The notes under the pieces are model-generated. The model was not told where the DNA came from. It did not search any database and was given only the letters and a program-made list of their open reading frames with translations. Of a stretch of 64,000 nucleotides of DNA, positions 30,859 to 47,782 are shown piece by piece (the stretch's first letter is position 1; each line of letters begins with the position of its first letter). This stretch comes from Nitrospira japonica (GTDB lineage Bacteria > Nitrospirota > Thermodesulfovibrionia > Thermodesulfovibrionales > SM23-35). The stretch spans positions 64,001-128,000 of the forward strand of contig DYFC01000034.1 of NCBI GenBank assembly GCA_020725385.1. The letters are read 5' to 3'. The translations under genes were made by a program, and so were the position numbers.

Positions 30859-30905
30859 AAAGAAGAACTAATTTGAAATAGATTAATCAGAGGAGGGAGT
30901 TGTAA

Positions 30906-31976: not shown

Positions 31977-32210
31977 TGTTAAGAATTAAATTAGAGAAAC
32001 AAACATAATAATATAATTAACAAATTACTAAGCTATCACTTAGCAATCTCGAAAGCCTAAACAACTTGCTGATTTATCGAGAAATTTTATTGTTTAAAAA
32101 ACAAACGTTAATATTGCTTTATTTCTAAAATATAATCACAAATTTAGTTAAAATAAAAACAAAGGTGTTCAAAAAAATTAACTAAAAATAGTTTTTAACT
32201 TAATTCCATT

Positions 32211-33359: not shown

Positions 33360-33386
33360 CATTTTTAATATTGCATATTTTCATTT

Positions 33387-33932
33387 ATGAAAAAGCTTGA
33401 TTATATTTTACAGAATTGGAGATATTCAATGGTTATTTCATTTATTCCATCTGGTTCTGAAATACTTGATATAGGCGGATATGACGGTTCGTTTTTACTA
33501 AAAGTAAAGAATAAAATCAAAAAAGGATATTGTATTGACCCGCTGATTAGTCCATTCAAAGATGATAAACTTGAATTTATAAAAGAACAAGTAAATAACA
33601 AATTGCCCTTTGCAGACTCATCATTTGATGTAATTACAATGATTGCTGTTTTTGAACATTTAAGAAAAAGCAGAACAATTGCAGTTTCTGAAGCATATCG
33701 GCTCTTAAAAAAAGGTGGAATAGCAATACTAACCATACCCGACAAATTTGTTGACAATATATTAAAAATTTTATCTACGCTAAAGCTAATTGATGGCATT
33801 TCTATTGAAGAACATGATAATTATGAAGTATCTGAGACTATTGAAATATTTTCTAAATATGGTTTTACATTACAAAAGTGGCAAAAGTTTCAGCTCGGCT
33901 TGAATAATCTTTTTATCTTCAAAAAAAAATGA
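33387..33932 (+). CDS. Class I SAM-dependent methyltransferase
   Basis: LDIGGYDG, LPFADSSFDVIT..AVFEHL. Confidence 0.85.
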   Translation: MKKLDYILQNWRYSMVISFIPSGSEILDIGGYDGSFLLKVKNKIKKGYCIDPLISPFKDDKLEFIKEQVNNKLPFADSSFDVITMIAVFEHLRKSRTIAVSEAYRLLKKGGIAILTIPDKFVDNILKILSTLKLIDGISIEEHDNYEVSETIEIFSKYGFTLQKWQKFQLGLNNLFIFKKK

Positions 33933-33945
33933 GGAGGCAATATTT

Positions 33946-36354
33946 TTGCCAGATAAGTTAAATAAATCTTTTTTTCTTCAATTAATATTCCTTTTTTCTG
34001 TTTTTTTGCTCTCCATTATTAAGATAGAAGACACAGATAGCTGGATGCATCTTAGTTTTGGAAGGCTGATCTGGGAAAATAAAGGGTTACCAGCCACAGA
34101 ACAATTTGTATATCCAAGTTTTGGTATGCCTTTTTCTTATAGCTCATGGCTTTTTGGAGTTATATATTATCTTTCATATTTATTTTTAGATATTCCGGGT
34201 ATTATTCTTCTCAAGGCTACTACAATAACCTTAGCTTTTTACATAATTTTAAAAGATTCTTTAAGGCCATATAAGAATCTGATTGTATCCCTTCTCATTA
34301 TGATGTTAATTGTGATTATCACCCGTCACCGTTTTGCGGAAAGACCCGAAACATTTATGTTGATATTTCTATCCTTCAGTATTTTCAGTTTGAATGCTTA
34401 TCTATACGACAAAAAGAAATATATCTATTGGCTTCCTTTTATCCATATGTTATGGGCAAATTGTCATTCAAGCATAAATATAATGGTGGTTCCATTTTTA
34501 GTTTTCATTATTGGAGGATTAGCTAATCAATATCTTGATAAAAAAGGTATTAAAGTCGAAATTAGTCCATCTAATGATCAAATTAAGACTATTCTGATTA
34601 TTTTTGTTTTGTCATTTCTTTCTTCTTTAATAAGCCCTTATTTTATAAGTCAGTATTTTTTTGCAACCCAGTATCTTTCCGAACCATGGTTTAAACAGGA
34701 AATTCTCGAACTTCAAAGTCCTGAATGGTACATTAAAAAGTGGCTTTATATTGGAACCGGGATTGTAATTGCAAGCTTTGTTTTAAACAGTAAAAAAATA
34801 TCAATCATAAATTTCTTGATGATTATTCCATTTGCATATCTTTCATTTACAGCAAAACGATTTTTACTTCTTTACGCTGTTATTGCTGCTCCTATTGTGA
34901 TTAAAAATATTTCAGCTTTCATCAGAGGAAGGAAATGGGAAAGATTCAATGATAAGAAAATTATGTTGGCCTTTACATTATTGTGGGTAATAGGATTTAC
35001 ATTTTTAGCAATATTCAAAGGTACCCCGTTTGACGGTAATAGAAAAAAATTCGGATTTGGCGTTGAATATAAGTATGTCCCTGAAGGAGCTCTTAAATAT
35101 CTTGATAAAAATAATATTTATGGAAGAGTTTTTAATATTTTTGAGTGGGGCGGATATATTATCTGGCGGGATTTCCCTAAAAGAATTGTATTTGTTGACC
35201 CCCGGGGGTATCTGCCAGCAGGTCTTCATGAAAAATTAAATCTCGCTATGGGAAGGCCTTATCTTTTAGATGCATTGGAGAATAAATATGGATTTGATGT
35301 TGTGCTTACCGGGTACCCGGAAGTTAGTACAAATGTTGAAAATATTGATTTAGCTTTATTGCATCCTGGGTGGGCTTTAGTATATTGGGATGATAAGGCT
35401 CTGGTTTATTTAAAGAAAGATGGTAAGTATAGGGAAATTGCTAATAGAGATATATATAATTTTGTTAAGCCTGCCAATGGACTGAGCAATCTTAAAAGTA
35501 TTTTGGAGGACAAAGAAAATAGAATAAAAACAATCGAGGAATTAAAAAGAAATATAGATAGTACCAATTCTCAAATCGGAAAGATGTTTCTCGGATATTC
35601 ATATAATGAGATTGGAGAATATAACAAAGCTCTGGATATTTTTTCAGAGTTGGAAAAAACTAATTCTTCAGAATATCTTTTGCAGTCATATAGCGGGGTT
35701 GCTTTTGCCTATGAAAGACTTGGAGATTTTAAAAAAGCTATCGAATATAACGAGAAGATAATAGGTTATAAAAAAGAGGCCGGTGTATTTTATGAAATTG
35801 GCAGATTATATCTAAAATTGAATGATGTGAAGAATTCATTAAAATACCTAAGAAAAGCTTTAGATAAAGATCGTGATTATCTTCCTGTCTACCCTTTAAT
35901 TTTAGATATTTACCGTAAGGAAGGGATGAGTCATGAATACGATAAATTAAAAAAGTACTATGACGAACTTTCTATCAGGAGTACTGCGATGGAACATTTT
36001 CAGAGTGGAGTAAATGCATATTTAAATGGAAAATTTGATGAAGCCCTGGCTGAGTTTAATAAAGCTATTGAATTGAATCCACTGGACGCAAAATCTTACA
36101 GCAACATAGGTTATATTTATTATGATAGAGGTGATATGATAAACGCTTTTATATACCAGAAAAAAGCAATAGATATAGATCCGAAATTTGCGAATGCTCA
36201 CTTCGGGCTGGCTATGATTTATAAAAAACATGGTGATTTTTTAAATGAAAAAAAGCATCTTGAAGAATATCTGAAACTTGAACCTTCGGGTTATTATTCC
36301 AGAAGGGCGATGGAAGAGATTGACATCCTGAATAAATTTTTGAAAAAACGATAA
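33946..36354 (+). CDS. Polytopic membrane protein (GT-C-fold-like) with C-terminal TPRs
   Basis: DTDSWMHLSFGR first-loop motif, ERPE, LWANCH, about 10 TMs, then TPR repeats. Confidence 0.7.
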   Translation: MPDKLNKSFFLQLIFLFSVFLLSIIKIEDTDSWMHLSFGRLIWENKGLPATEQFVYPSFGMPFSYSSWLFGVIYYLSYLFLDIPGIILLKATTITLAFYIILKDSLRPYKNLIVSLLIMMLIVIITRHRFAERPETFMLIFLSFSIFSLNAYLYDKKKYIYWLPFIHMLWANCHSSINIMVVPFLVFIIGGLANQYLDKKGIKVEISPSNDQIKTILIIFVLSFLSSLISPYFISQYFFATQYLSEPWFKQEILELQSPEWYIKKWLYIGTGIVIASFVLNSKKISIINFLMIIPFAYLSFTAKRFLLLYAVIAAPIVIKNISAFIRGRKWERFNDKKIMLAFTLLWVIGFTFLAIFKGTPFDGNRKKFGFGVEYKYVPEGALKYLDKNNIYGRVFNIFEWGGYIIWRDFPKRIVFVDPRGYLPAGLHEKLNLAMGRPYLLDALENKYGFDVVLTGYPEVSTNVENIDLALLHPGWALVYWDDKALVYLKKDGKYREIANRDIYNFVKPANGLSNLKSILEDKENRIKTIEELKRNIDSTNSQIGKMFLGYSYNEIGEYNKALDIFSELEKTNSSEYLLQSYSGVAFAYERLGDFKKAIEYNEKIIGYKKEAGVFYEIGRLYLKLNDVKNSLKYLRKALDKDRDYLPVYPLILDIYRKEGMSHEYDKLKKYYDELSIRSTAMEHFQSGVNAYLNGKFDEALAEFNKAIELNPLDAKSYSNIGYIYYDRGDMINAFIYQKKAIDIDPKFANAHFGLAMIYKKHGDFLNEKKHLEEYLKLEPSGYYSRRAMEEIDILNKFLKKR

Positions 36355-36355
36355 A

Positions 36356-36976
36356 ATGTCTTCGGCAGATTTATATATCAATAGTATAGATTTCAAGAAA
36401 TATTTAAATGAATCTGAATGCTGTGAATGTGGTTTCTCTTCATGTAATGACTTTTTTGTTGCACTAAAGGATGGAAAGGTTGATATTCAACTATGTAAAT
36501 TTATTGATGGAAATAGGTTGAATGCTTTAGAAGCAATAAAAAAGATTGAAACGATCTGGCCTGAAGTGCCTTTAATAACTTTTCCAAGACCGGCATATAC
36601 TGGACTTATAGAGCTCAATAATCCTGATGAAAAATCAATTATTCTTATTACAGGAAATAATGAGTTTACAGAACAGGTTGTGCTAACGGTTCTCGGGACA
36701 ACTTCATGTCCATTTTATGTTCTGTTTGTTGATACCGATGGGAATACAATAGATATGTCCATGATTTACAATACTTTCAATGCTGAGAGGGTATTGGATG
36801 CATTAAGAAAAACAGGGTTACTGAATATATCTACTGGAAAAAATATTGTAATTCCCGGACTTGCACATGGTATAGAAAGCGAAATTAATAAACTTACGGG
36901 CTTTAATATTAAAACAGGGCCGGTTTGTGTAGCAGAATTGCCGCTTTTTTTAGCGAACATATGGATACCACCATAA
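36356..36976 (+). CDS. Fe-S domain fused to an AcsC/CdhE-type corrinoid-binding domain
   Basis: CCECGFSSC...C N-terminal Fe-S motif; C-terminal ITGN..VDTDG..IPGLA..GPV pattern of the CFeSP/HgcA cobalamin domain. Confidence 0.7.
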   Translation: MSSADLYINSIDFKKYLNESECCECGFSSCNDFFVALKDGKVDIQLCKFIDGNRLNALEAIKKIETIWPEVPLITFPRPAYTGLIELNNPDEKSIILITGNNEFTEQVVLTVLGTTSCPFYVLFVDTDGNTIDMSMIYNTFNAERVLDALRKTGLLNISTGKNIVIPGLAHGIESEINKLTGFNIKTGPVCVAELPLFLANIWIPP

Positions 36977-37084
36977 ACTACAATACATTTATGATGAACG
37001 AATTTTTTTAAGCAATGTTTACATTGTTTGGGTTAAAATAATTCAGTCTATACGGACTGTTTAAAAAGCAGAGGGGTGAGTTAA

Positions 37085-38083
37085 ATGGAAAGAATATTAT
37101 TAGGACATGGAAGCGGTGGAAAGCTTATGTATCAATTGATTAGAGAACATTTTGTTCCTGAGTTTAAGCTCAAGTCTTTGAATGATTCGGCGGTTCTTAA
37201 AGGGTTAAATAAAGGTAAGATTGCTGTTACAACCGATTCTTATGTGGTTTCCCCTATTTTTTTCCCGGGTGGCAATATTGGTGAGCTTGCTGTTTACGGG
37301 ACAGTAAATGATCTTTCAATGGTAGGTGCAACACCTCTTTATATTACGTCGGGATTTATACTTGAAGAAGGGTTTCCACTCGAAGATTTAAAGAAAATTT
37401 TAACCTCTATGTCGGAAGCAGCAAAAAAAGCAGGTATAAAAATAGTTGCAGGTGATACTAAAGTTGTAAATAAAGGAAAAGCAGATGGTATCTTTATTAA
37501 CACATCAGGCGTTGGAATTGTCGGGGAAAATACGGACATTTCACCATTAAAAGTAAAGCCCGGGGATAGAGTAATCCTAAGCGGTCCAATCGGTAATCAT
37601 GGTATCTCGATTATTGCAGAAAGAAATGGTTTAAGGTTTAATCCTCCTGTATTGAGTGATACGGCTCCTTTGAATGTACTTGTTAAGGAAATGTTGAAAC
37701 ACACAAAGAAAATACACGCAATGCGTGACCCTACCCGCGGAGGACTTGCAACCACTCTCAAAGAAATAGCGAATGATTCAAAATGTTGCATTACTATTTT
37801 TGAAGAATCAATACCCGTGCCTTCTGGTGTCAGAGGAGCGTGTGAACTTCTCGGACTCGATCCGCTTTATGTGGCTAATGAAGGCATTTTAATTGCAATA
37901 GTATCTGCGGATGTAGCCGATTCACTCGTAAAAAAAATGAGGAAAATATCTGTTGCGCGCGAATCGTGTATAATTGGTGAAGTTACAAAAAATCCTGCAG
38001 GTATGGTACTTCTTAAAACATCTATTGGTGGAACAAGAATGATCGAGATGCTTTCCGGTGACCAATTACCAAGAATATGTTAG
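37085..38083 (+). CDS. hypE: Hydrogenase maturation protein HypE
   Basis: HGSGG, TTDSYVV, GTVNDL, MRDPTRGG, C-terminal PRIC. Confidence 0.97.
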   Translation: MERILLGHGSGGKLMYQLIREHFVPEFKLKSLNDSAVLKGLNKGKIAVTTDSYVVSPIFFPGGNIGELAVYGTVNDLSMVGATPLYITSGFILEEGFPLEDLKKILTSMSEAAKKAGIKIVAGDTKVVNKGKADGIFINTSGVGIVGENTDISPLKVKPGDRVILSGPIGNHGISIIAERNGLRFNPPVLSDTAPLNVLVKEMLKHTKKIHAMRDPTRGGLATTLKEIANDSKCCITIFEESIPVPSGVRGACELLGLDPLYVANEGILIAIVSADVADSLVKKMRKISVARESCIIGEVTKNPAGMVLLKTSIGGTRMIEMLSGDQLPRIC

Positions 38084-38806: not shown

Positions 38807-39940
38807 CTATTTTTTTGTTTTTACTTTGTTAGTTTTTTGTTCGGAAGGACTTGGTATTGATTTTGGATATGTCTCCGGGTTATGGTCTTTATCATGGCAG
38901 TTAAGATAACATTGTCCTGCACCGGGGCCAAAAGATATATATAAAAGTTTACCACTGGATGAGGGTCTTATATTCAAAGAGTTTTCAAAATCTATCAGGT
39001 GCTGAAACCGCTTGCTTCCGTGAGGGTTGTGACAATTTCTACAGGAAACACCGATGTTCGATATATGCTGGTTATGATAGGTAAAGCTTTCATTATTTAA
39101 AATGCTATCTCTTCTGTGACAACTATAACATAGTTCATATTGTTGAATGCTCTCGGGTCTATCATCTGAAGAAAAGTTTTTAGAAAGTAAATTTTTATAT
39201 CTTGAACCATGAGGGCCTTTCGGGCCCAAAGGATCATCATTTCCATGACAATTGGTACATTTTATCTGGGTAGAATAAGAAAGAGGAATGATAAGACTTG
39301 GCACAAAACTGTTCTTACCCGGACCTATAACAGGATGATAGGAAGGGTTTGAAATATTGAAAAGTTCTGCTTTATTAGTCTGGTATGAAGGCAAGTTTGC
39401 ACTATATGAATGGCAGTTGAAACACAATTCATATTCATTGGTTATGCCCACTTTTGACCTCTGAGCAGAAGTCCCTTTTATACCAATGAAAGGATTGTCT
39501 TTTGAGACAAAATGATGGTGATGACAATCTCCGCACTCAACGTGTCTTGGCTTTGATGAATCTATCTCCGGCAATATTTCATCATTAGTATGTATCCCGG
39601 TTTTTTCAACCGGATGTCTGTAAGGTTTTTCAAATTCTTTTTTCAGGTTTTTTGATGTGAAGCTCCTGGAAACTATCCCGTTATTTTTTGCTTTTTCTGT
39701 TGAGCTTTCGTCACCGTGACAGATAAAGCAAAAATTATTTTTTGTATCCGGAAGCATAGCTGTGCCAGGTCTTCCATGACCTACATGGCAGCTTGCACAC
39801 CCTTTTGGCACTTTTGTTTTATCAAAATGGGTTATATCGATATTTTTAGAATAGCACCTTGAAAACAAACTGAGAATAAATATAGACCCTATTGTAAAAA
39901 AGAAAAAAACTATAAATATTATTTTTTTTAATACGGCCAT
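38807..39940 (-). CDS. Multiheme cytochrome c (7 CxxCH plus 1 CxxxCH)
   Basis: CASCH, CFICH, CGDCH, CFNCH, CTNCH, CYSCH, CRNCH, CYLNCH; N-terminal signal/anchor; start 39940 or 39961. Confidence 0.9.
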   Translation of the reverse strand: MAVLKKIIFIVFFFFTIGSIFILSLFSRCYSKNIDITHFDKTKVPKGCASCHVGHGRPGTAMLPDTKNNFCFICHGDESSTEKAKNNGIVSRSFTSKNLKKEFEKPYRHPVEKTGIHTNDEILPEIDSSKPRHVECGDCHHHHFVSKDNPFIGIKGTSAQRSKVGITNEYELCFNCHSYSANLPSYQTNKAELFNISNPSYHPVIGPGKNSFVPSLIIPLSYSTQIKCTNCHGNDDPLGPKGPHGSRYKNLLSKNFSSDDRPESIQQYELCYSCHRRDSILNNESFTYHNQHISNIGVSCRNCHNPHGSKRFQHLIDFENSLNIRPSSSGKLLYISFGPGAGQCYLNCHDKDHNPETYPKSIPSPSEQKTNKVKTKK

Positions 39941-40752
39941 ATCTTGTATGATTCCCCGCAATCATTATAGTGACAGACAAAACAAACATCGTTATATGAA
40001 GTTCCCTGCCAGAATGGGGGCCATTTTACCCCGTTGTTTTCTTCCAACGACCTATTGGTATGAGGATTATGGCAGGAAGTACATTGAACCCCCATGCCTC
40101 CACCCTGATTTTCAGTAGGATACAATTTAACAGGAGAGGTTCTATTGGATGGCGGTGGATTTAGCCAGCAGCTATTCGTAATATTGCTATTATTTCTTTT
40201 TGATACAAGTGAATTATCGTAAACAATTGAAATCGGATGGCCACCGGAAAGATCAGTGCCGATATAACCGCTGCAACCTGAACCGGGAATAAGTTTTCCA
40301 GAGGCATCAATGCAGTTGCTAATATTCATTAATATTTCTTCCCATCTGCTATTTACCGAACCAACGGCTACTGTTCCATCATGACAACTGAGACAGAGTT
40401 TTGAAAATCCGTCAATTTTCCATGCCTGACTTTCAGCTTCGGTATATGATTGCAATGTGTTACTCCAATAAACTTTATATGTTTGTACAGCAGATAGTTC
40501 ATGATTCCAGAGAGGCTGAACAGGATTTGCATTATGTGGTGTATGGCAAAAAATACATATCTCCGGCTCATAAACTGCTTTTACAGTATTGCTTGGAGAA
40601 GGCCATCTGCTCAATGAACCTGAAAGATTGTGTTTTGTATAAACTATGCTGGTCTGGGGTGGATCTTTTGCCTGAACCAGTGCAGATAAAAATGTTACAC
40701 TGATTAAAATAACAGATACCATGAATTTTATTATTTTGCTTATACTTGACAT
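39928..40752 (-). CDS. Tetraheme cytochrome c, OmcE-like
   Basis: Signal peptide; TKHNLS, ICIFCHTPHNA, PLWNH, CLSCHDG, GTDLSGGHPI, CTSCHNPH, CFVCH in the motif order I recall for Geobacter OmcE. Confidence 0.8.
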   Translation of the reverse strand: MSSISKIIKFMVSVILISVTFLSALVQAKDPPQTSIVYTKHNLSGSLSRWPSPSNTVKAVYEPEICIFCHTPHNANPVQPLWNHELSAVQTYKVYWSNTLQSYTEAESQAWKIDGFSKLCLSCHDGTVAVGSVNSRWEEILMNISNCIDASGKLIPGSGCSGYIGTDLSGGHPISIVYDNSLVSKRNNSNITNSCWLNPPPSNRTSPVKLYPTENQGGGMGVQCTSCHNPHTNRSLEENNGVKWPPFWQGTSYNDVCFVCHYNDCGESYKIWPY

Positions 40753-40758
40753 ATTTTA

Positions 40759-41808
40759 TTATTCCTTATTTTTGAGATATTTAAAAACCTGAATTCTATG
40801 ATTATATGAATCAGCCACATAGATAAAATCATCATTATCAATGAAAATACCGGCAGGTAATATCATCTCTCCGTTTCCGGTTCCTGTTTTCCCGAACACC
40901 AGCAGGAGTCTGCCTTCCTTATCAAATATCTGGACATTATCAAAATTCGAATCTGAAACATATATATGTCCTTCAGAATCTACAGCAACTCCTTTCGGTC
41001 TGGAAAGGTCTCCGGAGCCATCGCCTGCTTTTCCAAACATTGAAAGAAAGTTACCATCTTTATCAAAAATCTGTATCCTGAAATTTAAAGAGTCTGTGAT
41101 ATATAAAATTTCCTGTTTATCTATAAAAATATTCGTAGGATAATTGAATTCACCTTTTTGGTTTCCCTGATTACCAAAACTGAATAAGAATTCACCTTTT
41201 TTATTAAATACTAACACACGGTGGGAGTGAGTATCAATTACATAAATTCTATCACTGGTTAAAGCAATGCCCGATGGTCTCAAAAATAGATTAGATGAGC
41301 CTATTTCATACTTAAATTTGCCATTTCTATCAAAAACAAAAACTTTTTTAAGTGATGAATCTGTCACATAAATTTTTCCATCTTCATCAACAGCAATGCC
41401 TATAGGTGATTGTAATTCTGCTTGACCAGCATCTTTAATAAGAAAATATTTGCCATTTGAATCATAAACATGAACTATGTGCGCTCCGGGATCTGTAATA
41501 TACAAATTTCTATTAAATGCATATATCCCATGCGGTCTAATCATAGTGCCATAGAATTGTTCTTTGCCGAAGAAGATTTCAATTGTCTGTTCTACCCATG
41601 ATTTGTTTATGCCAAAATCCGATGGGGTATAGATACATGTTAGGAATTTAATTTTAGGAATCTGGGGGTAGGGTGGCCATACCAATGTTGATTCTCGGGA
41701 ATCAATGTTATTATATATAATATTTTTTGAATTACTACAGGAAATTATTAAAAAAAAGATTAATATTATTGAAAGGTTAACTTTGCCTTTAAATATATTT
41801 TCTTTCAT
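40759..41808 (-). CDS. NHL-repeat beta-propeller lipoprotein
   Basis: Lipobox IISC, VWPPYP, repeated F.YP..I.VD..YV.DS.N.RIQ; start 41808 or 41856. Confidence 0.9.
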   Translation of the reverse strand: MKENIFKGKVNLSIILIFFLIISCSNSKNIIYNNIDSRESTLVWPPYPQIPKIKFLTCIYTPSDFGINKSWVEQTIEIFFGKEQFYGTMIRPHGIYAFNRNLYITDPGAHIVHVYDSNGKYFLIKDAGQAELQSPIGIAVDEDGKIYVTDSSLKKVFVFDRNGKFKYEIGSSNLFLRPSGIALTSDRIYVIDTHSHRVLVFNKKGEFLFSFGNQGNQKGEFNYPTNIFIDKQEILYITDSLNFRIQIFDKDGNFLSMFGKAGDGSGDLSRPKGVAVDSEGHIYVSDSNFDNVQIFDKEGRLLLVFGKTGTGNGEMILPAGIFIDNDDFIYVADSYNHRIQVFKYLKNKE

Positions 41809-41812
41809 AATA

Positions 41813-43912
41813 TTAAAAAGTTCTTGATGCTTTAAGATTAAAACGTCTTGTTTCACTTATAGCATATCCTTCATCCAGTTTTGTTGAAGTCAACTCAAGT
41901 GAGAAAAACATCTGTCTCCATGTGTAATACAAATCAAATTCATAATCTCTTGTTCTTGTATCTGTATAGAATTCTCTATTTGTTGTAAGAATGCCGGTAT
42001 TCCACCATCCTTTGCTCCTGAATTCCTCTCTCCACCATGCTGTAAAATTAAGTCCTCTGAAGAAAGTATAATTAAACCTTCCTTCATAATTGTATTTTCT
42101 TATATCCTGTGAATTGGTCTGACCTGTTGTGTAACTTCCGCTTAATATTATTGAGCCTCTTTTTAAGATTGGATATCTAAAATGGCATGATGCAGTATAG
42201 TGTCTTATTTTCTTTGCATTCTGGCTTTCACCCAGCCATACAGATTCAAAGGAATTTAATTTATTGCCCGAGGAATCCATAAAACGGGCTTCTAATTCAA
42301 CAGACCATGAAGCTTTCCAGGGGCCTCTTACATGGGAGCCTAACCGGGCTTTATGTTCAACTGTGGAAGAATTATCTCCTAAGTCGGATTCGGTTTCATA
42401 AGGGGAATTGAAAGAATATTTAAAAGTCCTGTAACTGAATCTATAGCCGGCAAATATCTTGCCCCATTTATATTTTCTTGTTGACAGGTTTAAATCCAGA
42501 CTATTTTCCATGAAACTTAAATCATTGCTATTTTTTTCCTGAGAAAGAATAAAGTTATACAACGCATTAAAGTCATATATTTTGTAAGGTTTGCCGTAGT
42601 TGAAGGTAGTGTCAAGTTTATATGCGTAACGATCATCATCATTAACTGTTCCATATTGAATGCGCATATTAGCTCTCGCAAATATTCTGTTGGAAATTCT
42701 ATAACGCCAGATGCCCGCAAGGGTATATCTGTCCGAAGTTTGCTCACCGGATTTTGAAGATGTAAATTCAAAATTATAATCATGGTAGATATTTTTTAAT
42801 GGCTGGGGTTTATAATCAGCAGAAAAACTAATAAGTCTGGATGTATCGATTTTATAATATTGAAATGCAGTCCATAGAGAATTGCCTTTATTAAACTGGG
42901 TTTTTGTATTTAAGGTTATTCTGGTTGAACTGAAATCTCTATTGGGATATGAATATTTGGATAATGAATAAACGAGAAAATATTTTGTTTTGATTGCATT
43001 CCAGTTGCCGCTTAAGGTGGTGTCCAGTTTATCAATACTGAATTTATATTCAACTTTTTCTTTTATAATGTCGAAACCTCCCAGAAATTCATCATAGGCT
43101 CTCTTACCGGTCATCCTATCGGTTGAATAGTCCCAGTGTGAATATTCTATGCGAATATTAGGAAATTTTTTTAAGGTTGAATAGAATCTGGCGCCGTAAA
43201 AATTTGATACAGAATCCCCGTCAAAGACTGTAACACCATCCATTTTGTTGTATGAACGTGTAGCAAAAACATCAAGCGAGACAGGCCTTGTTGGCAGAAA
43301 TGTAGTTGATAATGTGTATGAAATATCCCTTGCATTCCAGGTCGAATCATCGGCTGCTTTATATTTAGTTTTACTGTTGTTAAATGTGATTTCGGCAAAA
43401 TAGTTAAGTAGTTTTGGGTGGTAAATGAAACCATTTGCTCTTAGTCTGAATTTTTGCTCGAATGTTTGTGAAGAAGATTTGAATTTATTCCCCATATATT
43501 TAGTTTCGGTATTATAATCTTTATAGTTAAGCTCGATCAGTCCGCTAAAACGTAAAGAGTATCTTGCCTTAACCGGGCTACCGTATAATTGGGTATATGA
43601 AAGAGCCCCTGCAGTTGAAGCGCTTTCACCACCGGATTTAGACATGGATTTTGACATTGATTTGGACATGGATGACATGGATGACATTGATGACATGGAC
43701 GACATGGATGACATGGATGACATGGATGACATTGATGACATAGCTAATGAAAATTCAGATGAGGTCAAGACAAATATAAAACATAGAGAAAAAGAGAGAA
43801 GAATGAAACGAAAGAATCTACTTAATAAAAAATTTGATATTAGATGCCATAAAGTGATGCAAATCAATAAAATGGAAAAATAGACTGGCTTTTTGAGTTC
43901 TATTATTGTCAT
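41813..43912 (-). CDS. Putative outer-membrane beta-barrel (porin-cytochrome conduit component) with (SSM)n N-terminal repeat
   Basis: Hydrophobic leader, aromatic-rich alternating beta strands, C-terminal NLKASRTF; located among cytochromes. Confidence 0.65.
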   Translation of the reverse strand: MTIIELKKPVYFSILLICITLWHLISNFLLSRFFRFILLSFSLCFIFVLTSSEFSLAMSSMSSMSSMSSMSSMSSMSSMSSMSKSMSKSMSKSGGESASTAGALSYTQLYGSPVKARYSLRFSGLIELNYKDYNTETKYMGNKFKSSSQTFEQKFRLRANGFIYHPKLLNYFAEITFNNSKTKYKAADDSTWNARDISYTLSTTFLPTRPVSLDVFATRSYNKMDGVTVFDGDSVSNFYGARFYSTLKKFPNIRIEYSHWDYSTDRMTGKRAYDEFLGGFDIIKEKVEYKFSIDKLDTTLSGNWNAIKTKYFLVYSLSKYSYPNRDFSSTRITLNTKTQFNKGNSLWTAFQYYKIDTSRLISFSADYKPQPLKNIYHDYNFEFTSSKSGEQTSDRYTLAGIWRYRISNRIFARANMRIQYGTVNDDDRYAYKLDTTFNYGKPYKIYDFNALYNFILSQEKNSNDLSFMENSLDLNLSTRKYKWGKIFAGYRFSYRTFKYSFNSPYETESDLGDNSSTVEHKARLGSHVRGPWKASWSVELEARFMDSSGNKLNSFESVWLGESQNAKKIRHYTASCHFRYPILKRGSIILSGSYTTGQTNSQDIRKYNYEGRFNYTFFRGLNFTAWWREEFRSKGWWNTGILTTNREFYTDTRTRDYEFDLYYTWRQMFFSLELTSTKLDEGYAISETRRFNLKASRTF
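43635..43742 (-). repeat. Coding tandem repeat, 9-nt then 12-nt units
   Basis: About 8 copies of ATGTCATCC/ATGTCATCA, then 12-nt units encoding MSKS x3. Confidence 0.9.
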
Positions 43913-43961
43913 GCATAGAAATCATTATTTAAAGTTGTCATAATTTATAAATAAATGCTTT

Positions 43962-45026
43962 TTATTTTTTTTCTTTAAGATATTGAAAAACCTGAACACG
44001 TCTATTAAAAGTATCCGATATATAAATAATGTCTTTATTATCAATGAACATTCCCGATGGGAGAGAAAATTCCCCAGGCTTGGTTCCGCCCTGTCCTACC
44101 CATAATAGAAGTTTTCCCGTGTCATTGAATATCTGGAAATTGTTAAAAGCTGTATCAACAACATAGATATGTCCGTCAGAGTCAATCCCGATTCCGGCAG
44201 GTCTTGAGAAATTTCCTGATGTATCACCAAGTCTGCCAAATTTTCTAATAAATCTTCCTTCTGAATCGAAAATCTGAACTCTGAAATTAAATGAATCGAC
44301 TACATATAAATAACCTTTTTTATCAACCGCAAGGTAACTTGGAAAATTGAATTCCCCGTTATCATTACCTTTTTTCCCGATAGTTGCAATGGATTTTCCT
44401 GTATCGTCGAATACTCTTACTACATGATTTTTTGTGTCTGAAACATATAGTTTGTTATTAATTTCATCATAAGCTAACCCTGAAGGATTCTTAAGCATCC
44501 CTATGCTTCCAATATCGATCAGGACTCTTCCTGAATTTTTATCAATCCCGAAAACTTTGTCTATTCTTGAATCGGATACAAAAATAATTCCTTTTTTATT
44601 ATTAATGGCGAGTCCGATTGGAGCTGAGACAACTCCTTCACCAAGAAAGCGAAGTCTGCCCTGTTCCTGATCAAAAACGAAGATAACACCGTGCTCGGAG
44701 TCAGCGACATATACATTACCTGCATTATCGGCAACAACACCATTCGGTCTTCTCAGTCGAATGCCTCTTTCTTCGCCAACAAGTATATTGAGAACCTTAC
44801 TCGGTCTTCCAAAATCATATTTATGAAACCATTGTCTTACCCATTTAATTCGTGGTTGTTCTGGTGGAGAAGGCCATACATATTCAGAAAAATCCTGGTC
44901 AGAAATTTCTGTCGAAGTTGTTGCACATCCTGTAAAGATTATATTTAATAGTAGTAGAATGATTATTATTTCCGGGAAAAACCTATTATTTTTGAAAGGA
45001 TTTTTACACTTTAGTATTTGTGGCAT
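43962..45026 (-). CDS. NHL-repeat beta-propeller lipoprotein
   Basis: Lipobox FTGC, VWPSPPEQPRI, six NHL repeats; paralogue of 40759-41808. Confidence 0.9.
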   Translation of the reverse strand: MPQILKCKNPFKNNRFFPEIIIILLLLNIIFTGCATTSTEISDQDFSEYVWPSPPEQPRIKWVRQWFHKYDFGRPSKVLNILVGEERGIRLRRPNGVVADNAGNVYVADSEHGVIFVFDQEQGRLRFLGEGVVSAPIGLAINNKKGIIFVSDSRIDKVFGIDKNSGRVLIDIGSIGMLKNPSGLAYDEINNKLYVSDTKNHVVRVFDDTGKSIATIGKKGNDNGEFNFPSYLAVDKKGYLYVVDSFNFRVQIFDSEGRFIRKFGRLGDTSGNFSRPAGIGIDSDGHIYVVDTAFNNFQIFNDTGKLLLWVGQGGTKPGEFSLPSGMFIDNKDIIYISDTFNRRVQVFQYLKEKK

Positions 45027-45796
45027 TTAAGGCATATCCTTTGTACTGGAAATAACTTGGAATAGTCTGAACTATGAGGGTTATGACAGCTAACACAGCT
45101 TAAATCTTTTCCCGGTACCTTCGGGTCAGGCATTTCAATTTGTCTTTTTGGATTGACAGGATCGGGTACTTTAATTATTTTTAAGGTGCTTATGTCTTTT
45201 ACATCTTTTATCGGATGAATTTTCCCGCCGGGCAAAGCAACAATATGAATTCCCGATGATTGAGCTTTATGACACGTTGTACATAGGTCATTTATTGGAT
45301 TTGGAAGCAAAGAAGGGTTATTGCTTGCATGGGGGTTATGGCATGTGCTGCAACCTATTACATTTATTACCTTATGAGTATATTTTTTTTCGAACTTGTT
45401 TTTATCATGGCAACTGAAACATAATTCTCTATTTGTAAGTTTCAGGAGTTTTTCATTGTTTGAACTATGTGGATTATGGCATCCTGTGCACATTCCCTTT
45501 GAAACCGGTGGATGAATAGTTTTACCTTTAAGTTTTGTTTCATCATGGCAGTTATAGCAAAGCCCCGGCATAGTTTGAACAAGGATTATGCTTCCTTTCT
45601 CGGGATGATTCTTACCGGGCATTGACTTATGACATGCTTCGCAGCCCATTGTTATGGGATTATGAATGTATTTTGCTTCCTTTAAATTTGCATGGCACAT
45701 AAGGCAGGGATTTGCTTCTTGTGAAAATGAAGTATTTATAAGTGAAAAAAATAAAAATAAAACATGAAAAGTAAGAATAGAAATAAATTTTTTCAT
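45011..45796 (-). CDS. Nonaheme periplasmic cytochrome c
   Basis: 9 CxxCH motifs, several CxxCHNPH; signal peptide. Confidence 0.9.
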   Translation of the reverse strand: MKKFISILTFHVLFLFFSLINTSFSQEANPCLMCHANLKEAKYIHNPITMGCEACHKSMPGKNHPEKGSIILVQTMPGLCYNCHDETKLKGKTIHPPVSKGMCTGCHNPHSSNNEKLLKLTNRELCFSCHDKNKFEKKYTHKVINVIGCSTCHNPHASNNPSLLPNPINDLCTTCHKAQSSGIHIVALPGGKIHPIKDVKDISTLKIIKVPDPVNPKRQIEMPDPKVPGKDLSCVSCHNPHSSDYSKLFPVQRICLKCHKY

Positions 45797-45973
45797 CAGG
45801 TTTATTTTTTTCCTTATTTAGATGATATTTTAATTAAATTAAATTTTATTTTTTAACAATTTATTTTAACTTTAGATATTGTCTTTGTCAATAAAATTTG
45901 TTGTTAATTCAGTAATTTCATAAAGTTTTCATAATCTTTTTAAAATAGAATTTTTAGGGAGTAATATTATCAT

Positions 45974-46007
45974 AAAAAAAGCCCCGGAAAAATTCACCGG
46001 GGCTTTT
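45974..46007 (-). terminator. Intrinsic terminator
   Basis: AAAAGCCCCGG-N9-CCGGGGCTTTT with a T-run on the minus strand after the dodecaheme pair. Confidence 0.8.
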
Positions 46008-46022
46008 GTATAAGTAAACAAA

Positions 46023-46958
46023 TTATTTGCTTATTGATTTTGAAGGAAGATCATGTGCGCCAACATGGCAATCGGCACAATTCGGGAACTTCTTAAGTAA
46101 AGCTTCTCCATGTGGTTTACTATGACAATCTTCACATTTAGGTATAAATCTGTGTTTTGTATGGCAGCTTGCACAGGTTAATGTAGAATGTTTGCTTGCG
46201 TTTGCTTTTAATTTTCCATAAACAACGCCGTGGCAGGAACCACAAATATCATTGGCTGTTGATATTGGATAACTTATCTTTAATGGCGAATGTGCAGGAT
46301 GACAGGCAAGACATTCTTTTACGGTCAAAGTCGAAGTGTGTGGCTTATGGCATTCCATACATGACGGGATATATCCATGTTTGTCATGATGGCAAGAAGA
46401 GCATGCAACATTTGTGTGCTTACTGACATTTGTTTTTATTTCCTGTCCGACTTTTGTATGGCAATCGCCACAAACTTTGGACATTTCAGCACTCATGGTC
46501 ATCTGTGTTTTTGGAGCATGAGGATTGGAATGACATGTGGCACATGCTGCAAATTTTTCTCCATGAATCAAACCATGACATGTTTTACACTGGGGCATGA
46601 TCTCATTCCAGTTCTGTTTTATCGGATTATATTGATGGAATTTGGTATGGCATTTCTGGCAATCAAATTTGTGTTTTCCGCCCTCGGCCTTAATTTCATT
46701 AAATACTCCAGGGTGACAACGGGCACAGTCAGCAGGTGTTAAGGGTGAAATTTCCATTTCATAAATGTCTTTTGGTTTGGGCGCAGGTTTTGGTGGTTCA
46801 ACCACAGGCTGTTGAGCAGGTACCTGTGTTGCTGCGGCAACTTGCTGTGGTGATTGCTGGGCAGGTGGTGGAGCTACCGGAGCTGCTGCACATGCAATTA
46901 TTACAAGCAATAAAAGCAAGGTACAGCCGGTTAGTAAAACTATCTTTTTTTGTTTCAT
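46023..46958 (-). CDS. Dodecaheme cytochrome c lipoprotein
   Basis: 12 CxxCH; lipobox IIAC, Pro/Gln-rich linker; ATG 46958 (TAATG coupling). Confidence 0.9.
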   Translation of the reverse strand: MKQKKIVLLTGCTLLLLLVIIACAAAPVAPPPAQQSPQQVAAATQVPAQQPVVEPPKPAPKPKDIYEMEISPLTPADCARCHPGVFNEIKAEGGKHKFDCQKCHTKFHQYNPIKQNWNEIMPQCKTCHGLIHGEKFAACATCHSNPHAPKTQMTMSAEMSKVCGDCHTKVGQEIKTNVSKHTNVACSSCHHDKHGYIPSCMECHKPHTSTLTVKECLACHPAHSPLKISYPISTANDICGSCHGVVYGKLKANASKHSTLTCASCHTKHRFIPKCEDCHSKPHGEALLKKFPNCADCHVGAHDLPSKSISK

Positions 46959-47782
46959 TATTTTGAAGCCTCCTTTCCTAAACTGTGTGCACTTGTATGG
47001 CACATATTACATTTCGGGAATTTTGCAACCATTCCTGCAGGATGGGGTGAACCATGACAATTTTCACAAGCCGGCACATTCCTATGTTTGTCTTTATGGC
47101 AATAAACACAGGCAAGTTTTGCATGTTTTGTGTCAGTACCGGTTAAAGTATCGTAAATATTCTTATGACAGGATGCACAGGTTTTTGAAGGCATATCGGC
47201 ACCATAAGTAATAGTCAAAGGTTGATGGGCTGGATGACAGACCTGACAATCTTTTTCTGTCATATCAGAGGAATGGGGACGGTGACATTGCATACAAGGT
47301 GGAATCTGCTTATGAGCTTTATGGCATGTTGTGCAGAAAAATTTTGAATGCTTGGTCTGATGTGTTTTCATTTCTTCACCCTGTTTTTCATGACAGGAAA
47401 GACACGGTGCTGTAAGATTTGCAGCAAGTTTCATATCAACAGGTGCATGGGGATTTGAGTGACATGTTTTACAGTTACCAATTTCATAATGTTTTTTGCC
47501 TGCATGACATGCACTGCAGACAGGGATTATTTTGTCTTTACTGACCATTGGAGGATGCCCCTTATGGCAGTCGAGGCAGGAGACAGCAGTTTTGTGTTTA
47601 TTACCCTTTGCATCAACTATCTCCTGTACAGCTTTGTGACATTTCACACAGTCATCGTTTGATAATTGTGCTGCAGCAAGGCTTTCAGAATGAATTCCTG
47701 CTATAAATAGTACAGTGATTATGAGGACGAATAATGGCAGGAAAACATCAAATCTTTTCCTGAAACCATGAATCAGGTTCAT
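46958..47782 (-). CDS. Dodecaheme periplasmic cytochrome c
   Basis: 12 CxxCH; signal peptide; paralogue of the downstream gene. Confidence 0.9.
   Translation of the reverse strand: MNLIHGFRKRFDVFLPLFVLIITVLFIAGIHSESLAAAQLSNDDCVKCHKAVQEIVDAKGNKHKTAVSCLDCHKGHPPMVSKDKIIPVCSACHAGKKHYEIGNCKTCHSNPHAPVDMKLAANLTAPCLSCHEKQGEEMKTHQTKHSKFFCTTCHKAHKQIPPCMQCHRPHSSDMTEKDCQVCHPAHQPLTITYGADMPSKTCASCHKNIYDTLTGTDTKHAKLACVYCHKDKHRNVPACENCHGSPHPAGMVAKFPKCNMCHTSAHSLGKEASK

What the first reader, a model, noticed from the sequence alone, without database searches (positions are those of the whole stretch)
38807..47782. Porin-NHL-multiheme cytochrome cluster (about 45 hemes) suggesting extracellular electron transfer
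Seen: eight co-oriented genes: 12-heme, 12-heme lipoprotein, terminator, 9-heme, NHL lipoprotein, beta-barrel, NHL lipoprotein, OmcE-like 4-heme, 8-heme. Known: porin-cytochrome conduits and the Geobacter omcE neighbourhood combine multiheme cytochromes with NHL proteins. Inference: a periplasm-to-surface conduit plus filament or anchor machinery, in an organism whose low GC argues against Geobacter.
Basis: partly seen in the sequence, partly recalled or inferred. Interest (0 to 1): 0.75.

Follow-up and report, generated by a model that had tools for sequence, protein, structure and literature searches.

The report
Nitrospirota OmcE-type outer-membrane cytochrome cluster
This is a real eight-gene set for carrying electrons across the outer membrane of a sulfate-reducer-like Nitrospirota bacterium, built around a relative of the Geobacter "nanowire" protein OmcE, and it belongs to a kind of cluster that recent papers have already described.

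Summary
Eight co-oriented minus-strand genes (38807-47782) encode five multihaem cytochromes with 44 CxxCH motifs and one conserved CX3CH, two paralogous NHL propeller lipoproteins, and a 699-aa protein that folds confidently (pLDDT 89) as a 28-strand outer-membrane barrel. The 4-haem protein matches the solved OmcE filaments (7TFS, E 2e-21). The 9-haem protein matches MtrA of the Mtr complex (E 9e-21).

The gene order is conserved in the same genus and family, which is Nitrospirota by the labels of the closest MAGs. The genome carries dsrA and hmcA.

The component set equals the published minimal omcE nanowire cluster, which is reported in five phyla including Nitrospirota, and overlaps the published uet cluster. 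So this is a new member of a known kind. This scan reached the same verdict on other genomes.

Three things differ here:
- The OmcE-like protein sits in a sub-clade that is almost always followed by, or fused to, an 8-haem domain (UetJ-like undecahaem proteins elsewhere).
- The genome has no second, stand-alone OmcE.
- Two 12-haem paralogues form a separate upstream transcription unit.

Filament formation, cellular location and direction of electron flow are inferred, not shown.

The parts
46958..47782 (-). c12a: 274-aa cytochrome with 12 CxxCH and a Sec-type signal peptide. Probable periplasmic haem wire.
   Evidence: 12 CxxCH, 27 His. Pfam Cytochrom_c3_2 57.1 bits and Cytochrome_C7 38.3 bits. 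Weak match to the small tetrahaem cytochrome STC/CctA, 1M1P, E 1.6e-4. 41% identical to c12b.
46023..47003 (-). c12b: 12-CxxCH cytochrome, paralogue of c12a. It has a lipoprotein-like signal (…LLLLVIIAC) followed by a linker of about 50 residues rich in Pro, Gln and Ala. The likely start is the ATG at 46958, which overlaps the stop of c12a.
   Evidence: Lipobox, linker and alternative start were read from the translation by eye.
45974..46007 (-). Intrinsic terminator between the c12a-c12b unit and the six-gene unit.
   Evidence: Sequence. Fold: 11-pair GC-rich stem, 9-base loop, then a run of seven T; z -3.26.
45863..45891 (-). Sigma-70-like promoter match (TTGACA, 17-base spacer, TAAAAT) ahead of the 9-haem gene.
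   Evidence: 11 of 12 positions, the best match in the region. It is a consensus match only, and the number of matches in the region equals the shuffle expectation.
45011..45796 (-). c9: 261-aa, 9-CxxCH, MtrA/DmsE-like periplasmic cytochrome with a Sec signal peptide.
   Evidence: Paired_CXXCH_1 148.6 bits. DmsE family 108.5 bits, below the 192.2 cut-off. MtrA chain of 6R2Q, E 8.8e-21.
43962..45026 (-). NHL1: 354-aa NHL beta-propeller lipoprotein (lipobox FTGC).
   Evidence: Pfam NHL 111.5 bits and 6-bladed propeller DUF5128. 42% identical to NHL2.
41813..43912 (-). Large outer-membrane beta-barrel, 699-aa ORF. It has a signal-like N-terminus ending …SLA, then (MSS)8(MSKS)3, then about 28 strands, and ends in Phe.
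   Evidence: No Pfam, NCBIfam or PDB sequence match. AlphaFold2 with a 44-sequence alignment: pLDDT 89.1, pTM 0.75, 28 strands. Foldseek and VIA-align return only outer-membrane barrels; the MtrB TM-score is 0.43 and the best VIA Z is 17.3. The family has 266 representatives at E<=1e-3.
43634..43741 (-). Coding tandem repeat (period 9, 8.6 copies; period 12, 3.3 copies) that gives the MSS/MSKS tail at the mature N-terminus of the barrel.
   Evidence: One same-genus genome has 10 MSS copies and another has none.
40759..41856 (-). NHL2: 365-aa NHL beta-propeller lipoprotein (lipobox IISC).
   Evidence: Pfam NHL 127.2 bits. In 59 of 65 fused and 11 of 11 split type-B loci, an NHL gene sits directly upstream of the OmcE-like gene.
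39928..40752 (-). OmcE-family tetrahaem cytochrome, 274 aa, Sec signal peptide. It has 4 CxxCH plus the four conserved distal His (H41, H73, H172, H231).
   Evidence: 7TFS E 2.2e-21 and 9YUQ E 2.2e-10. Conserved columns. Placed in the 'type B' clade. It is the only OmcE-family gene in the genome.
38807..39961 (-). c8: 384-aa cytochrome with 7 CxxCH and a C-terminal CX3CH, and its own signal sequence. It is homologous to the C-terminal part of the 11-CxxCH (UetJ-like) proteins of other phyla.
   Evidence: Homologues and fusions. CX3CH in 63 of 82 homologues. 454 homologues at E<=1e-10; the named ones are Nitrospirota or Thermodesulfovibrionales MAGs.

Best explanation
The region encodes an OmcE/Uet-type trans-outer-membrane electron-transfer module in a dsrAB-bearing Nitrospirota bacterium.

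Shown:
- the gene content;
- the homologies (OmcE family, MtrA-like, NHL propellers);
- the barrel fold prediction;
- two transcription units separated by a terminator;
- conservation of the whole order in relatives.

Inferred mechanism:
- The two 12-haem cytochromes, one soluble and one lipid-anchored on a long linker, carry electrons across the periplasm between an inner-membrane complex such as Hmc and the outer membrane.
- The MtrA-like 9-haem protein sits in or under the 28-strand barrel and spans the outer membrane.
- The two NHL lipoproteins scaffold or chaperone the assembly.
- The OmcE-like 4-haem protein and its obligate 8-haem partner form the outer, surface-exposed part. These two together equal the single undecahaem (11 CxxCH plus the CX3CH) UetJ-like polypeptide of other phyla. 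They act either as a 12-haem heterodimer or as an OmcE-like polymer with the 8-haem protein as its base.

The direction of flow is open: export to minerals, or uptake from minerals or partner cells to feed sulfate reduction.
For: - OmcE family: 7TFS E 2.2e-21 with all eight haem ligands aligned.
- c9 matches MtrA of 6R2Q, E 8.8e-21.
- Barrel: pLDDT 89.1, 28 strands; only outer-membrane barrels come back from the fold searches; 6 of 44 family members hit Pfam OMP_b-brl; terminal Phe and signal peptides in relatives.
- The same eight-gene order occurs in G005, G001, G009 and G015. G004 shows it from a contig start, and L004 also has it.
- Barrel homologues occur in 4 of 5 same-genus genomes and 12 of 24 same-family genomes.
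- Across 79 loci from many phyla: 75 hold a type-B OmcE-like gene, 39 of those also hold a barrel hit, and 38 hold a stand-alone OmcE-like gene.
- Fusion of the OmcE-like and c8-like parts in 65 ORFs argues that the two window proteins work together.
- Literature: the minimal omcE cluster is two multihaem cytochromes, two propeller lipoproteins, OmcE and a large barrel, found in five phyla including Nitrospirota (PMC13712944, sections 7-9 and passages read). The uet cluster has UetA 4-haem, UetC barrel, UetH/I NHL and UetJ 11-haem (bioRxiv 10.1101/2022.05.06.490989, passages).
- dsrA and hmcA score above their curated cut-offs in this genome.
Against: - No experiment or expression data exist for this organism.
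- The 4-haem protein is not the orthologue of the filament-forming OmcE. It falls in a separate clade (SH-aLRT 95) with fused 11-haem proteins, while the genes from canonical-type Desulfobacterota clusters group elsewhere (quick tree, deep branches weak).
- The barrel shares only an 84-column N-terminal stretch with the barrels of canonical-type clusters (hhalign 98%, E 1.7e-13).
- It shares no sequence similarity with MtrB.
- Gene order differs from the Desulfobacterota clusters.
- Cellular location of every cytochrome is inferred from signal peptides and homology only.
Confidence: 0.62

Rival explanations
1. A true cytochrome nanowire. The 4-haem protein polymerises head-to-tail like OmcE, with His41 ligating a haem of the next subunit. 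The barrel is its secretion pore or anchor, and the 8-haem protein is the base that links the wire to the MtrA-like cytochrome.
For: - All four CxxCH and all four distal His of OmcE are conserved, including the N-terminal TKHNLS histidine.
- Profiles of both OmcE-like sub-clades hit both solved filaments strongly (148.6-179.2 bits for 7TFS, 139.3-139.6 for 9YUQ).
- The published discussion proposes a porin-mounted wire and an OmcE-like anchor protein (PMC13712944, Discussion passages).
- It is the only OmcE-family gene in the genome, so if there is a wire this protein makes it.
Against: - Its clade is dominated by fusions to an 8-haem domain: 65 fused against 11 split ORFs among the loci examined. 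That is not what a repeating wire subunit is expected to look like.
- It groups apart from the genes of canonical clusters.
- No filament from this clade has been imaged.
Confidence: 0.3
2. A non-filamentous Mtr-like conduit only. The MtrA-like c9 sits inside the barrel, and the OmcE-like:c8 heterodimer acts as a 12-haem surface cap analogous to MtrC.
For: - c9 is MtrA-like.
- Among the top 50 Foldseek rows, MtrB has the highest TM-score to the barrel model (0.43).
- In the loci of other phyla an MtrA-like 5- to 11-haem gene mostly sits next to the barrel gene.
- The fused 11-CxxCH homologues suggest one elongated surface cytochrome. The Tenderiales preprint predicts this for UetJ, and the peat preprint models it for its EET clusters.
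Against: - No sequence relation to MtrB or MtrC. PF22113 reaches only 19.6 bits against a cut-off of 30.
- The role of two propeller lipoproteins has no counterpart in Mtr.
Confidence: 0.3
3. A purely periplasmic redox network, for example storage or detoxification. In this reading the barrel is an unrelated porin or an assembly factor that happens to be linked.
For: All cytochromes have only Sec or lipoprotein signals. No export signal beyond the periplasm is recognisable (by eye).
Against: - Barrel, propeller genes and OmcE-like genes co-occur across many phyla (39 of 75 loci, limited by locus ends), and the order is fixed within the family.
- The passages read in PMC9070056 and the Tenderiales preprint say that the Geobacter metallireducens genes Gmet_0556 (NHL), Gmet_0557 (OmcP) and Gmet_0558 (OmcO) matter for Fe(III) oxide reduction. 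That the window trio corresponds to them rests on matching architecture only, not on a sequence test.
Confidence: 0.06

Closest known systems
omcE cytochrome-nanowire gene cluster of Desulfuromonadia (OmcE filaments 7TFS and 9YUQ; Petersen et al., mBio 2026, PMC13712944)
   Same: Same parts list as the published 'smallest cluster': two multihaem cytochromes, two beta-propeller lipoproteins, an OmcE-family tetrahaem protein and a large outer-membrane barrel. All eight haem ligands of OmcE are conserved. The paper lists Nitrospirota among the five phyla with such homologues.
   Different: - Order here is c9-NHL-barrel-NHL-OmcE-c8. In the Desulfobacterota loci I fetched it is c9-c9-NHL-OmcE-(NHL)-barrel.
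- The second cytochrome is a c8 (7 CxxCH + CX3CH), not a second MtrA-like one.
- The OmcE-like protein belongs to another sub-clade.
- The barrel is alignable only over 84 N-terminal columns.
- Two 12-haem genes are added upstream.
- The genomes behind the Desulfobacterota loci are unnamed, so calling them 'canonical' rests on their match to the paper's description (resB-like gene and triheme gene upstream).
uet (undecahaem electron transfer) cluster of 'Ca. Tenderia electrophaga' (bioRxiv 10.1101/2022.05.06.490989)
   Same: Barrel (UetC), two NHL proteins (UetH/I) directly upstream of an 11-CxxCH cytochrome (UetJ), and an OmcE-like tetrahaem protein (UetA). Gammaproteobacterial loci with this order were recovered with the window's OmcE-like protein as query (L026, L027, L050, L066, L077, L078). 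Their 11-haem proteins align to the window's OmcE-like protein and c8 end to end.
   Different: - The UetJ equivalent is split into two genes here.
- The genome has no UetA-type stand-alone tetrahaem gene.
- The cluster has no triheme c7, cupredoxin or PPIase genes.
Gmet_0556 (NHL) / Gmet_0557 (OmcP) / Gmet_0558 (OmcO) of Geobacter metallireducens; GSU2913 and GSU2912 of G. sulfurreducens
   Same: A trio of NHL protein, OmcE-family 4-haem protein and a following multihaem cytochrome. OmcE and OmcP are one homology group (PMC11492766, passages). Unnamed Desulfobacterota loci L116, L124 and L125 show NHL, 4-haem and 7-CxxCH genes in that order, with c8 homologues at E 4e-80, 2e-74 and 4e-81.
   Different: No barrel gene lies beside those trios. 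I could not confirm that L116, L124 and L125 are the named Geobacter genes.
MtrCAB and porin-cytochrome (Pcc) conduits; 'EET1 porin-scaffold-cytochrome' clusters of peat Acidobacteriota (bioRxiv 10.64898/2026.05.27.727921)
   Same: An MtrA-like periplasmic cytochrome beside a very large barrel. The peat preprint describes porin, scaffold and OmcE-like cytochrome clusters and reports them as expressed (section 9 read).
   Different: No sequence relation to MtrB or MtrC. The barrel is predicted with 28 strands.
DFE_448-451 and DFE_461-465 clusters of Desulfovibrio ferrophilus IS5 (Deng et al. 2018, PMC5815863)
   Same: A sulfate reducer with outer-membrane multihaem cytochromes co-expressed with two NHL propeller proteins, proposed to take up electrons from solids (passages). 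This genome also has dsrA and hmcA.

Membership tests
omcE nanowire gene cluster (Desulfuromonadia type) | OmcE-family tetrahaem protein: 4 CxxCH plus 4 distal His | tested here: met
   7TFS E 2.2e-21 over residues 17-234. H41, H73, H172 and H231 and the four CxxCH are invariant or nearly so in 22 relatives.
omcE nanowire gene cluster (Desulfuromonadia type) | Large outer-membrane beta-barrel encoded in the cluster | tested here: met
   pLDDT 89.1, 28 strands. Only outer-membrane barrels among the fold matches.
omcE nanowire gene cluster (Desulfuromonadia type) | Two beta-propeller lipoproteins | tested here: met
   NHL 111.5 and 127.2 bits. Lipoboxes FTGC and IISC by eye. The two are 42% identical.
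omcE nanowire gene cluster (Desulfuromonadia type) | Two accompanying multihaem cytochromes | tested here: met
   c9 and c8. In the Desulfobacterota loci both are MtrA-like; here only c9 is.
omcE nanowire gene cluster (Desulfuromonadia type) | The tetrahaem protein is the orthologue of filament-forming OmcE | tested here: not met
   The window protein lies in a 37-row clade (SH-aLRT 95) of fused and split type-B proteins. The six genes from canonical-type clusters lie outside it. Quick tree; the deep order is weakly supported.
omcE nanowire gene cluster (Desulfuromonadia type) | Barrel homologous to the barrel of the canonical cluster | tested here: inconclusive
   hhalign probability 98%, E 1.7e-13, but only 84 N-terminal columns. 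HMM E-values of 5e-4 to 3.3 on the large ORFs.
omcE nanowire gene cluster (Desulfuromonadia type) | Polymerisation into a filament with inter-subunit His-haem ligation | not testable with these tools
   Needs cryo-EM or haem-aware multimer modelling.
uet cluster (Tenderiales type) | Extracellular undecahaem UetJ preceded by NHL genes | tested here: inconclusive
   4 + 7 CxxCH on two adjacent genes that align to single 11-CxxCH proteins. An NHL gene lies directly upstream. UetJ itself was not compared.
uet cluster (Tenderiales type) | Separate tetrahaem UetA | tested here: not met
   Only one OmcE-family match in the 96.6%-complete genome.
uet cluster (Tenderiales type) | Triheme c7 cytochromes, cupredoxin and PPIase in the cluster | tested here: not met
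   None among the eight genes or their neighbours.
MtrCAB / porin-cytochrome conduit | MtrA/DmsE-type periplasmic multihaem cytochrome | tested here: met
   6R2Q chain A, E 8.8e-21. The DmsE family model gives 108.5 bits, below its 192.2 cut-off, and there are 9 haems, not 10.
MtrCAB / porin-cytochrome conduit | MtrB-family barrel | tested here: inconclusive
   No Pfam, NCBIfam or PDB sequence match. Fold likeness is generic: TM 0.43; VIA Z 15.4 against 17.3 for a TonB-dependent receptor.
MtrCAB / porin-cytochrome conduit | MtrC/OmcA-type surface decahaem cytochrome | tested here: not met
   PF22113 reaches only 18.7-19.6 bits against a cut-off of 30.

The most novel reading that the evidence does not exclude
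Across many phyla these clusters carry two kinds of OmcE-family protein. One is a free tetrahaem protein (UetA/OmcE-like). The other is an OmcE-like domain welded to, or immediately followed by, an 8-haem domain (UetJ-like; the window's 4-haem plus 8-haem pair).

The second kind could be the missing base or anchor of cytochrome nanowires. Its OmcE-like domain would seed or terminate the polymer through the shared His-haem interface, and its 8-haem tail would plug the wire into the barrel-bound MtrA-like cytochrome.

In this Nitrospirota lineage, which has lost or never had the free subunit, the split 4-haem protein would then act as both wire subunit and adaptor. That would give a minimal self-anchoring wire in a sulfate reducer, possibly used for electron uptake.
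Probability: 0.2. Interest if true: 0.7.

Novelty: new member of a known kind. Interest (0 to 1): 0.4.

Why it matters
It adds a well-conserved, compact example of the OmcE/Uet-type outer-membrane electron module in dsrAB-bearing Nitrospirota. These uncultured organisms are common in hot-spring and subsurface metagenomes. Their ability to exchange electrons with minerals or partner cells would bear on sulfur and iron cycling and on syntrophy.

The cluster is small, at six genes plus two. Its UetJ-like cytochrome is naturally split. The genome has a single OmcE-family gene. These features make it a clean system for three open questions about cytochrome wires: what the propeller lipoproteins and the barrel do, whether the OmcE fold polymerises outside Desulfuromonadia, and how such wires are anchored. 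As a discovery it is incremental, because the kind is already published and this scan has met it repeatedly.

Tried and rejected
- Complex prediction of the barrel (alignment A3, residues 29-614) with c9 (A7, residues 27-261) gave 'no answer' (score 0.00 in both runs, controls not run). It counts neither for nor against binding.
- The first AlphaFold run, with only 6 sequences, gave pLDDT 44.1. It was replaced by the 44-sequence run.
- The look-up of sequencing runs listed no RNA holder.
- Laying the contigs of four DNA runs on 43300-44000 showed contigs breaking inside the MSS repeat, and no run spanned it. Repeat-length variation within populations could therefore not be read.
- The pattern scan found no terminator between the 12-haem and 9-haem genes because of its loop limit. 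Reading and folding the sequence found it.
I named the taxon from labelled homologues and from a neighbouring housekeeping gene that is 78-79% identical and syntenic in three MAGs labelled Nitrospirota, Nitrospira or Nitrospiraceae.
- The supplement of PMC13712944 and the OmcE structure paper (PMC9357133) could not be read. The exact inter-subunit ligand numbering and the list of Nitrospirota homologues used by those authors are therefore unseen.
- I considered that the 4-haem and 8-haem genes are one gene broken by a frameshift. I rejected this because the split, with a signal-like N-terminus on the second protein, recurs in L002-L004 and in five of the six same-genus and same-family loci.
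- I considered c8 as an inner-membrane NapC/NrfH-type quinol dehydrogenase. I rejected this because the matches are weak (20.4 and 22.1 bits, below the cut-offs) and the domain is C-terminal in the fused forms.
- The residue after PLWN is His here, in 7 of 8 matched split proteins and 11 of 15 matched stand-alone proteins. It is Arg in 43 of 56 matched fused proteins and 5 of 6 canonical ones. I could draw no conclusion about a ninth histidine as an anchor mark.

Full report
**What is there**

The window's minus strand between 38807 and 47782 carries eight ORFs with short gaps or overlaps. Counting motifs gives 12, 12, 9, 4 and 7 CxxCH in the five cytochromes, plus CYLNCH near the C-terminus of the last one. 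That motif is CX3CH. It lies in the last 45 residues of 63 of 82 homologues examined, so an eighth haem is likely. The total is 44 CxxCH plus 1 CX3CH. In the whole 2.46-Mb genome only 27 ORFs have three or more CxxCH, and five of them are here.

The two non-haem 354- and 365-aa proteins are NHL beta-propellers (111.5 and 127.2 bits against a cut-off of 20). They are 42% identical to each other and by eye carry lipoboxes (FTGC, IISC). The two 12-haem proteins are 41% identical paralogues. The second has a lipoprotein-like signal and a Pro/Gln/Ala-rich linker of about 50 residues, read.

Just after the stop of the second 12-haem gene lies a clear intrinsic terminator at 46007-45974: an 11-pair stem, a 9-base loop and a run of seven T (z -3.26). 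The best promoter-like match of the region follows at 45891-45863, with 11 of 12 positions. So there are probably two transcription units: c12a-c12b, and c9-NHL1-barrel-NHL2-OmcE-like-c8.

**The parts**

*The 4-haem protein.* It matches the solved OmcE filament of G. sulfurreducens (7TFS, E 2.2e-21, residues 17-234) and the D. soudanensis OmcE bundle (9YUQ, E 2.2e-10). The four CxxCH and four further histidines (H41 in TKHNLS, H73, H172, H231) are invariant or nearly so among 22 relatives, and they align with the corresponding OmcE residues.

*The 9-haem protein.* It matches MtrA in the Mtr complex structure (6R2Q chain A, E 8.8e-21) and the DmsE family model, though below its cut-off.

*The 12-haem proteins.* Only weak likeness to small tetrahaem cytochromes (1M1P, E 1.6e-4).

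*The 8-haem protein.* No informative solved relative.

*The 699-aa protein.*
- It has no Pfam, NCBIfam or PDB sequence match.
- The word-index search found only five relatives besides itself.
- A profile search of 1.84 billion representatives found 266 at E<=1e-3 and 57 at E<=1e-30.
- With six sequences the fold was poor (pLDDT 44.1).
- With 44 sequences it is confident: pLDDT 89.1, pTM 0.75, 28 beta-strands and no plug.
- Foldseek and VIA-align return only outer-membrane barrels: ushers, TonB-dependent receptors, LptD and MtrB. The highest TM-score among the top 50 Foldseek rows is 0.43, to MtrB. VIA Z values are 13-17 with no stand-out.
- 6 of 44 family members hit Pfam OMP_b-brl.
- The protein ends in Phe. 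Relatives have plain signal peptides cleaved just before the first strand.

**Whose genome**

The genome has 71 contigs, is 96.6% complete and has 34.7% G+C. The named homologues of the barrel, the OmcE-like protein and c8 are MAGs labelled Nitrospirae, Nitrospirota, Thermodesulfovibrionia or Thermodesulfovibrionales.

A neighbouring housekeeping gene (hypE-like, 37085-38083) is 78-79% identical in the three closest MAGs, which are labelled Nitrospirota, Nitrospira and Nitrospiraceae. In at least two of them it lies beside the cluster on the same contig. That argues for vertical descent rather than recent transfer. The genome encodes dsrA (590.5 bits, cut-off 392.85) with a dsrB-like gene beside it, and the 16-haem HmcA (504 bits, cut-off 400). 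It therefore looks like a sulfate- or sulfite-reducing member of that lineage.

**Conservation**

The barrel profile finds strong matches in 4 of 5 other genomes of the genus and 12 of 24 of the family. Over all 41 genomes searched, the window's own included, 23 have a match.

- The full eight-gene order recurs in G005, G001, G009 and G015.
- G004 shows it from a contig start.
- G013 has the six-gene unit.
- G012 has it in fragments.

In these loci:
- 75 of the 79 hold what I call a type-B gene. This is an OmcE-like domain that is either fused to a c8-like domain (65 ORFs, mostly 11 CxxCH, 535-1000 aa) or followed by a separate c8-like gene (11 ORFs).
- An NHL gene lies directly upstream in 59 of 65 fused cases and 11 of 11 split cases.
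- 39 of the 75 also hold a barrel-profile hit.
- 38 also hold a stand-alone OmcE-like tetrahaem gene.
- 26 hold both.

Loci are cut at 10 kb or at contig ends, so these are lower bounds.

**Where the 4-haem protein sits in its family**

A FastTree of 120 OmcE-like domains and an IQ-TREE quick tree of 94 both place the window protein with the split proteins of L002-L004 (98-99 support). That group lies inside a clade of fused and split type-B proteins (37 rows, SH-aLRT 95). The second tree kept every third fused row and added 16 fetched Desulfobacterota loci.

To find the canonical arrangement I sampled 401 Desulfobacterota genomes, of which 44 had a match at E<=1e-15, and fetched 16 regions. 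Four of them (L115, L120, L122, L130) show a triheme gene, a resB-like gene, two MtrA-like cytochromes, NHL, a 4-haem gene, an optional second NHL, and a 746-807-aa ORF ending in Phe. This fits the published description of the Desulfuromonadia omcE region (PMC13712944, section 8). L119 and L128 show related orders. The 4-haem genes of all six loci fall outside the type-B clade.

Profiles of stand-alone (A4) and type-B (A5) domains both hit the two solved filaments strongly: 148.6 and 179.2 bits for 7TFS, 139.3 and 139.6 for 9YUQ. So family membership is certain, but orthology to the filament former is not.

The canonical-type barrels align with the window's barrel family only over 84 N-terminal columns (hhalign 98%, E 1.7e-13).

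**What is already known**

- Petersen et al. (mBio 2026, PMC13712944; abstract, sections 8 and 9 and passages read) state that the smallest omcE clusters always encode two multihaem cytochromes, two beta-propeller lipoproteins, OmcE and a large barrel. They find OmcE homologues with a nearby porin in five phyla including Nitrospirota. They say that how wires are secreted, anchored and terminated is unknown.
- The Tenderiales preprint (10.1101/2022.05.06.490989, passages) defines uetABCDEFGHIJ with tetrahaem UetA, barrel UetC, NHL proteins UetH/I and undecahaem UetJ. My gammaproteobacterial loci have that layout.
- The peat preprint (10.64898/2026.05.27.727921, section 9) describes expressed porin-scaffold-cytochrome clusters with OmcE-like cytochromes in Acidobacteriota and Verrucomicrobiota.
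- OmcE and OmcP form one homology group (PMC11492766, passages). Gmet_0557 (OmcP) and Gmet_0558 (OmcO) are needed for Fe(III) oxide respiration, and the NHL protein Gmet_0556 is reported as important for extracellular iron reduction (PMC9070056 and the Tenderiales preprint, passages). Unnamed Desulfobacterota loci L116, L124 and L125 have exactly such NHL, 4-haem and 7-CxxCH trios, with c8 homologues at E 4e-80, 2e-74 and 4e-81.
- Deng et al. 2018 (PMC5815863, passages) tie NHL-associated outer-membrane cytochromes of a sulfate reducer to electron uptake.
- Earlier reports of this scan reached the same 'OmcE-type cluster, known kind' verdict on at least 12 other genomes, three of them Nitrospirota.

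**How it most likely works**

Shown: gene content, homologies, the barrel prediction, operon structure and conservation.

Inferred:
- Electrons pass between an inner-membrane complex (Hmc is present) and the outer membrane through the two 12-haem proteins.
- They cross the outer membrane through the MtrA-like c9 held in or under the 28-strand barrel.
- They reach the outside through the OmcE-like protein and its 8-haem partner, which together equal one UetJ-like polypeptide.
- The propeller lipoproteins scaffold or chaperone the assembly.

I put about 0.6 on this general module. Within it, an OmcE-like polymer and a non-polymeric 12-haem cap are about equally likely. Direction of flow is open. 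The sulfate-reducer context and the D. ferrophilus and Tenderia precedents make uptake as plausible as export.

**Verdict**

The cluster is a new member of a known kind, so the interest is moderate. The points worth keeping are the natural split of the UetJ-like cytochrome, the absence of any second OmcE-family gene, the pair of 12-haem genes as a separate unit, and the idea that type-B proteins are the wire's base. That idea is testable and would address a question the field has posed explicitly.

Noticed in passing
window 43634-43741 (minus strand; N-terminus of the barrel): A coding tandem repeat gives (MSS)8(MSKS)3 right after the predicted signal-peptide cleavage site. A same-genus genome (G005) has 10 MSS copies. 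Another (G001) has none, and other family members start directly with the first strand. This is a species-specific, length-variable periplasmic tail of unknown use. Short-read contigs break inside it.
   Followed up: partly
window 28471-38083 (plus strand): The hydrogenase maturation genes hypF, hypD and hypE are interrupted between hypD and hypE by four genes: a family-2 glycosyltransferase, a 181-aa ORF, an 802-aa membrane protein with C-terminal TPR repeats, and a 206-aa CdhD/Fe-S-like protein. Published omcE regions of Geobacter are followed by glycosyltransferase and TPR genes. By eye, an 815-aa ORF after the barrel in L127 starts with a similar N-terminus. The link to the cytochrome cluster was not tested.
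   Followed up: partly
own genome, contig C45 9541-30767; C23 5017-6708; C17 11429-13186: There is a second cytochrome island with 26-, 16-, 7-, 6- and three 5-CxxCH ORFs on C45. Elsewhere there is a 16-haem HmcA (504 bits, above the cut-off) and a 13-haem ORF. The organism is cytochrome-rich for a 2.5-Mb genome.
   Followed up: partly
own genome, contig C53 64380-66763: dsrA is above the curated cut-off (590.5 bits), with a dsrB-like gene next to it. The organism probably respires sulfate or sulfite.
   Followed up: partly
L136 (G012:C2:91000-107000): In one same-family genome the cluster looks decayed or badly assembled. c9 is in four pieces, the OmcE-like ORF has 70 aa and c8 has 121 aa, while the barrel, both NHL genes and both 12-haem genes are whole.
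   Followed up: no
L117, L121, L126 (unnamed Desulfobacterota genomes): OmcE-like tetrahaem genes lie directly upstream of giant cytochromes of 2393-2753 aa with 46-57 CxxCH. In L121 and L126 a roughly 1000-aa NHL protein gene comes before them. Together with L118, which has the large NHL gene and ends at its contig end, the four tetrahaem genes form their own clade (SH-aLRT 96).
   Followed up: no
L138 (G030:C1:918000-936000; same order, other family): A complete 2.37-Mb genome of the same order has the other layout: NHL, a stand-alone 4-haem gene, NHL, barrel, NHL, and a fused 10-CxxCH 704-aa protein. Split and fused forms therefore both occur within one order.
   Followed up: partly
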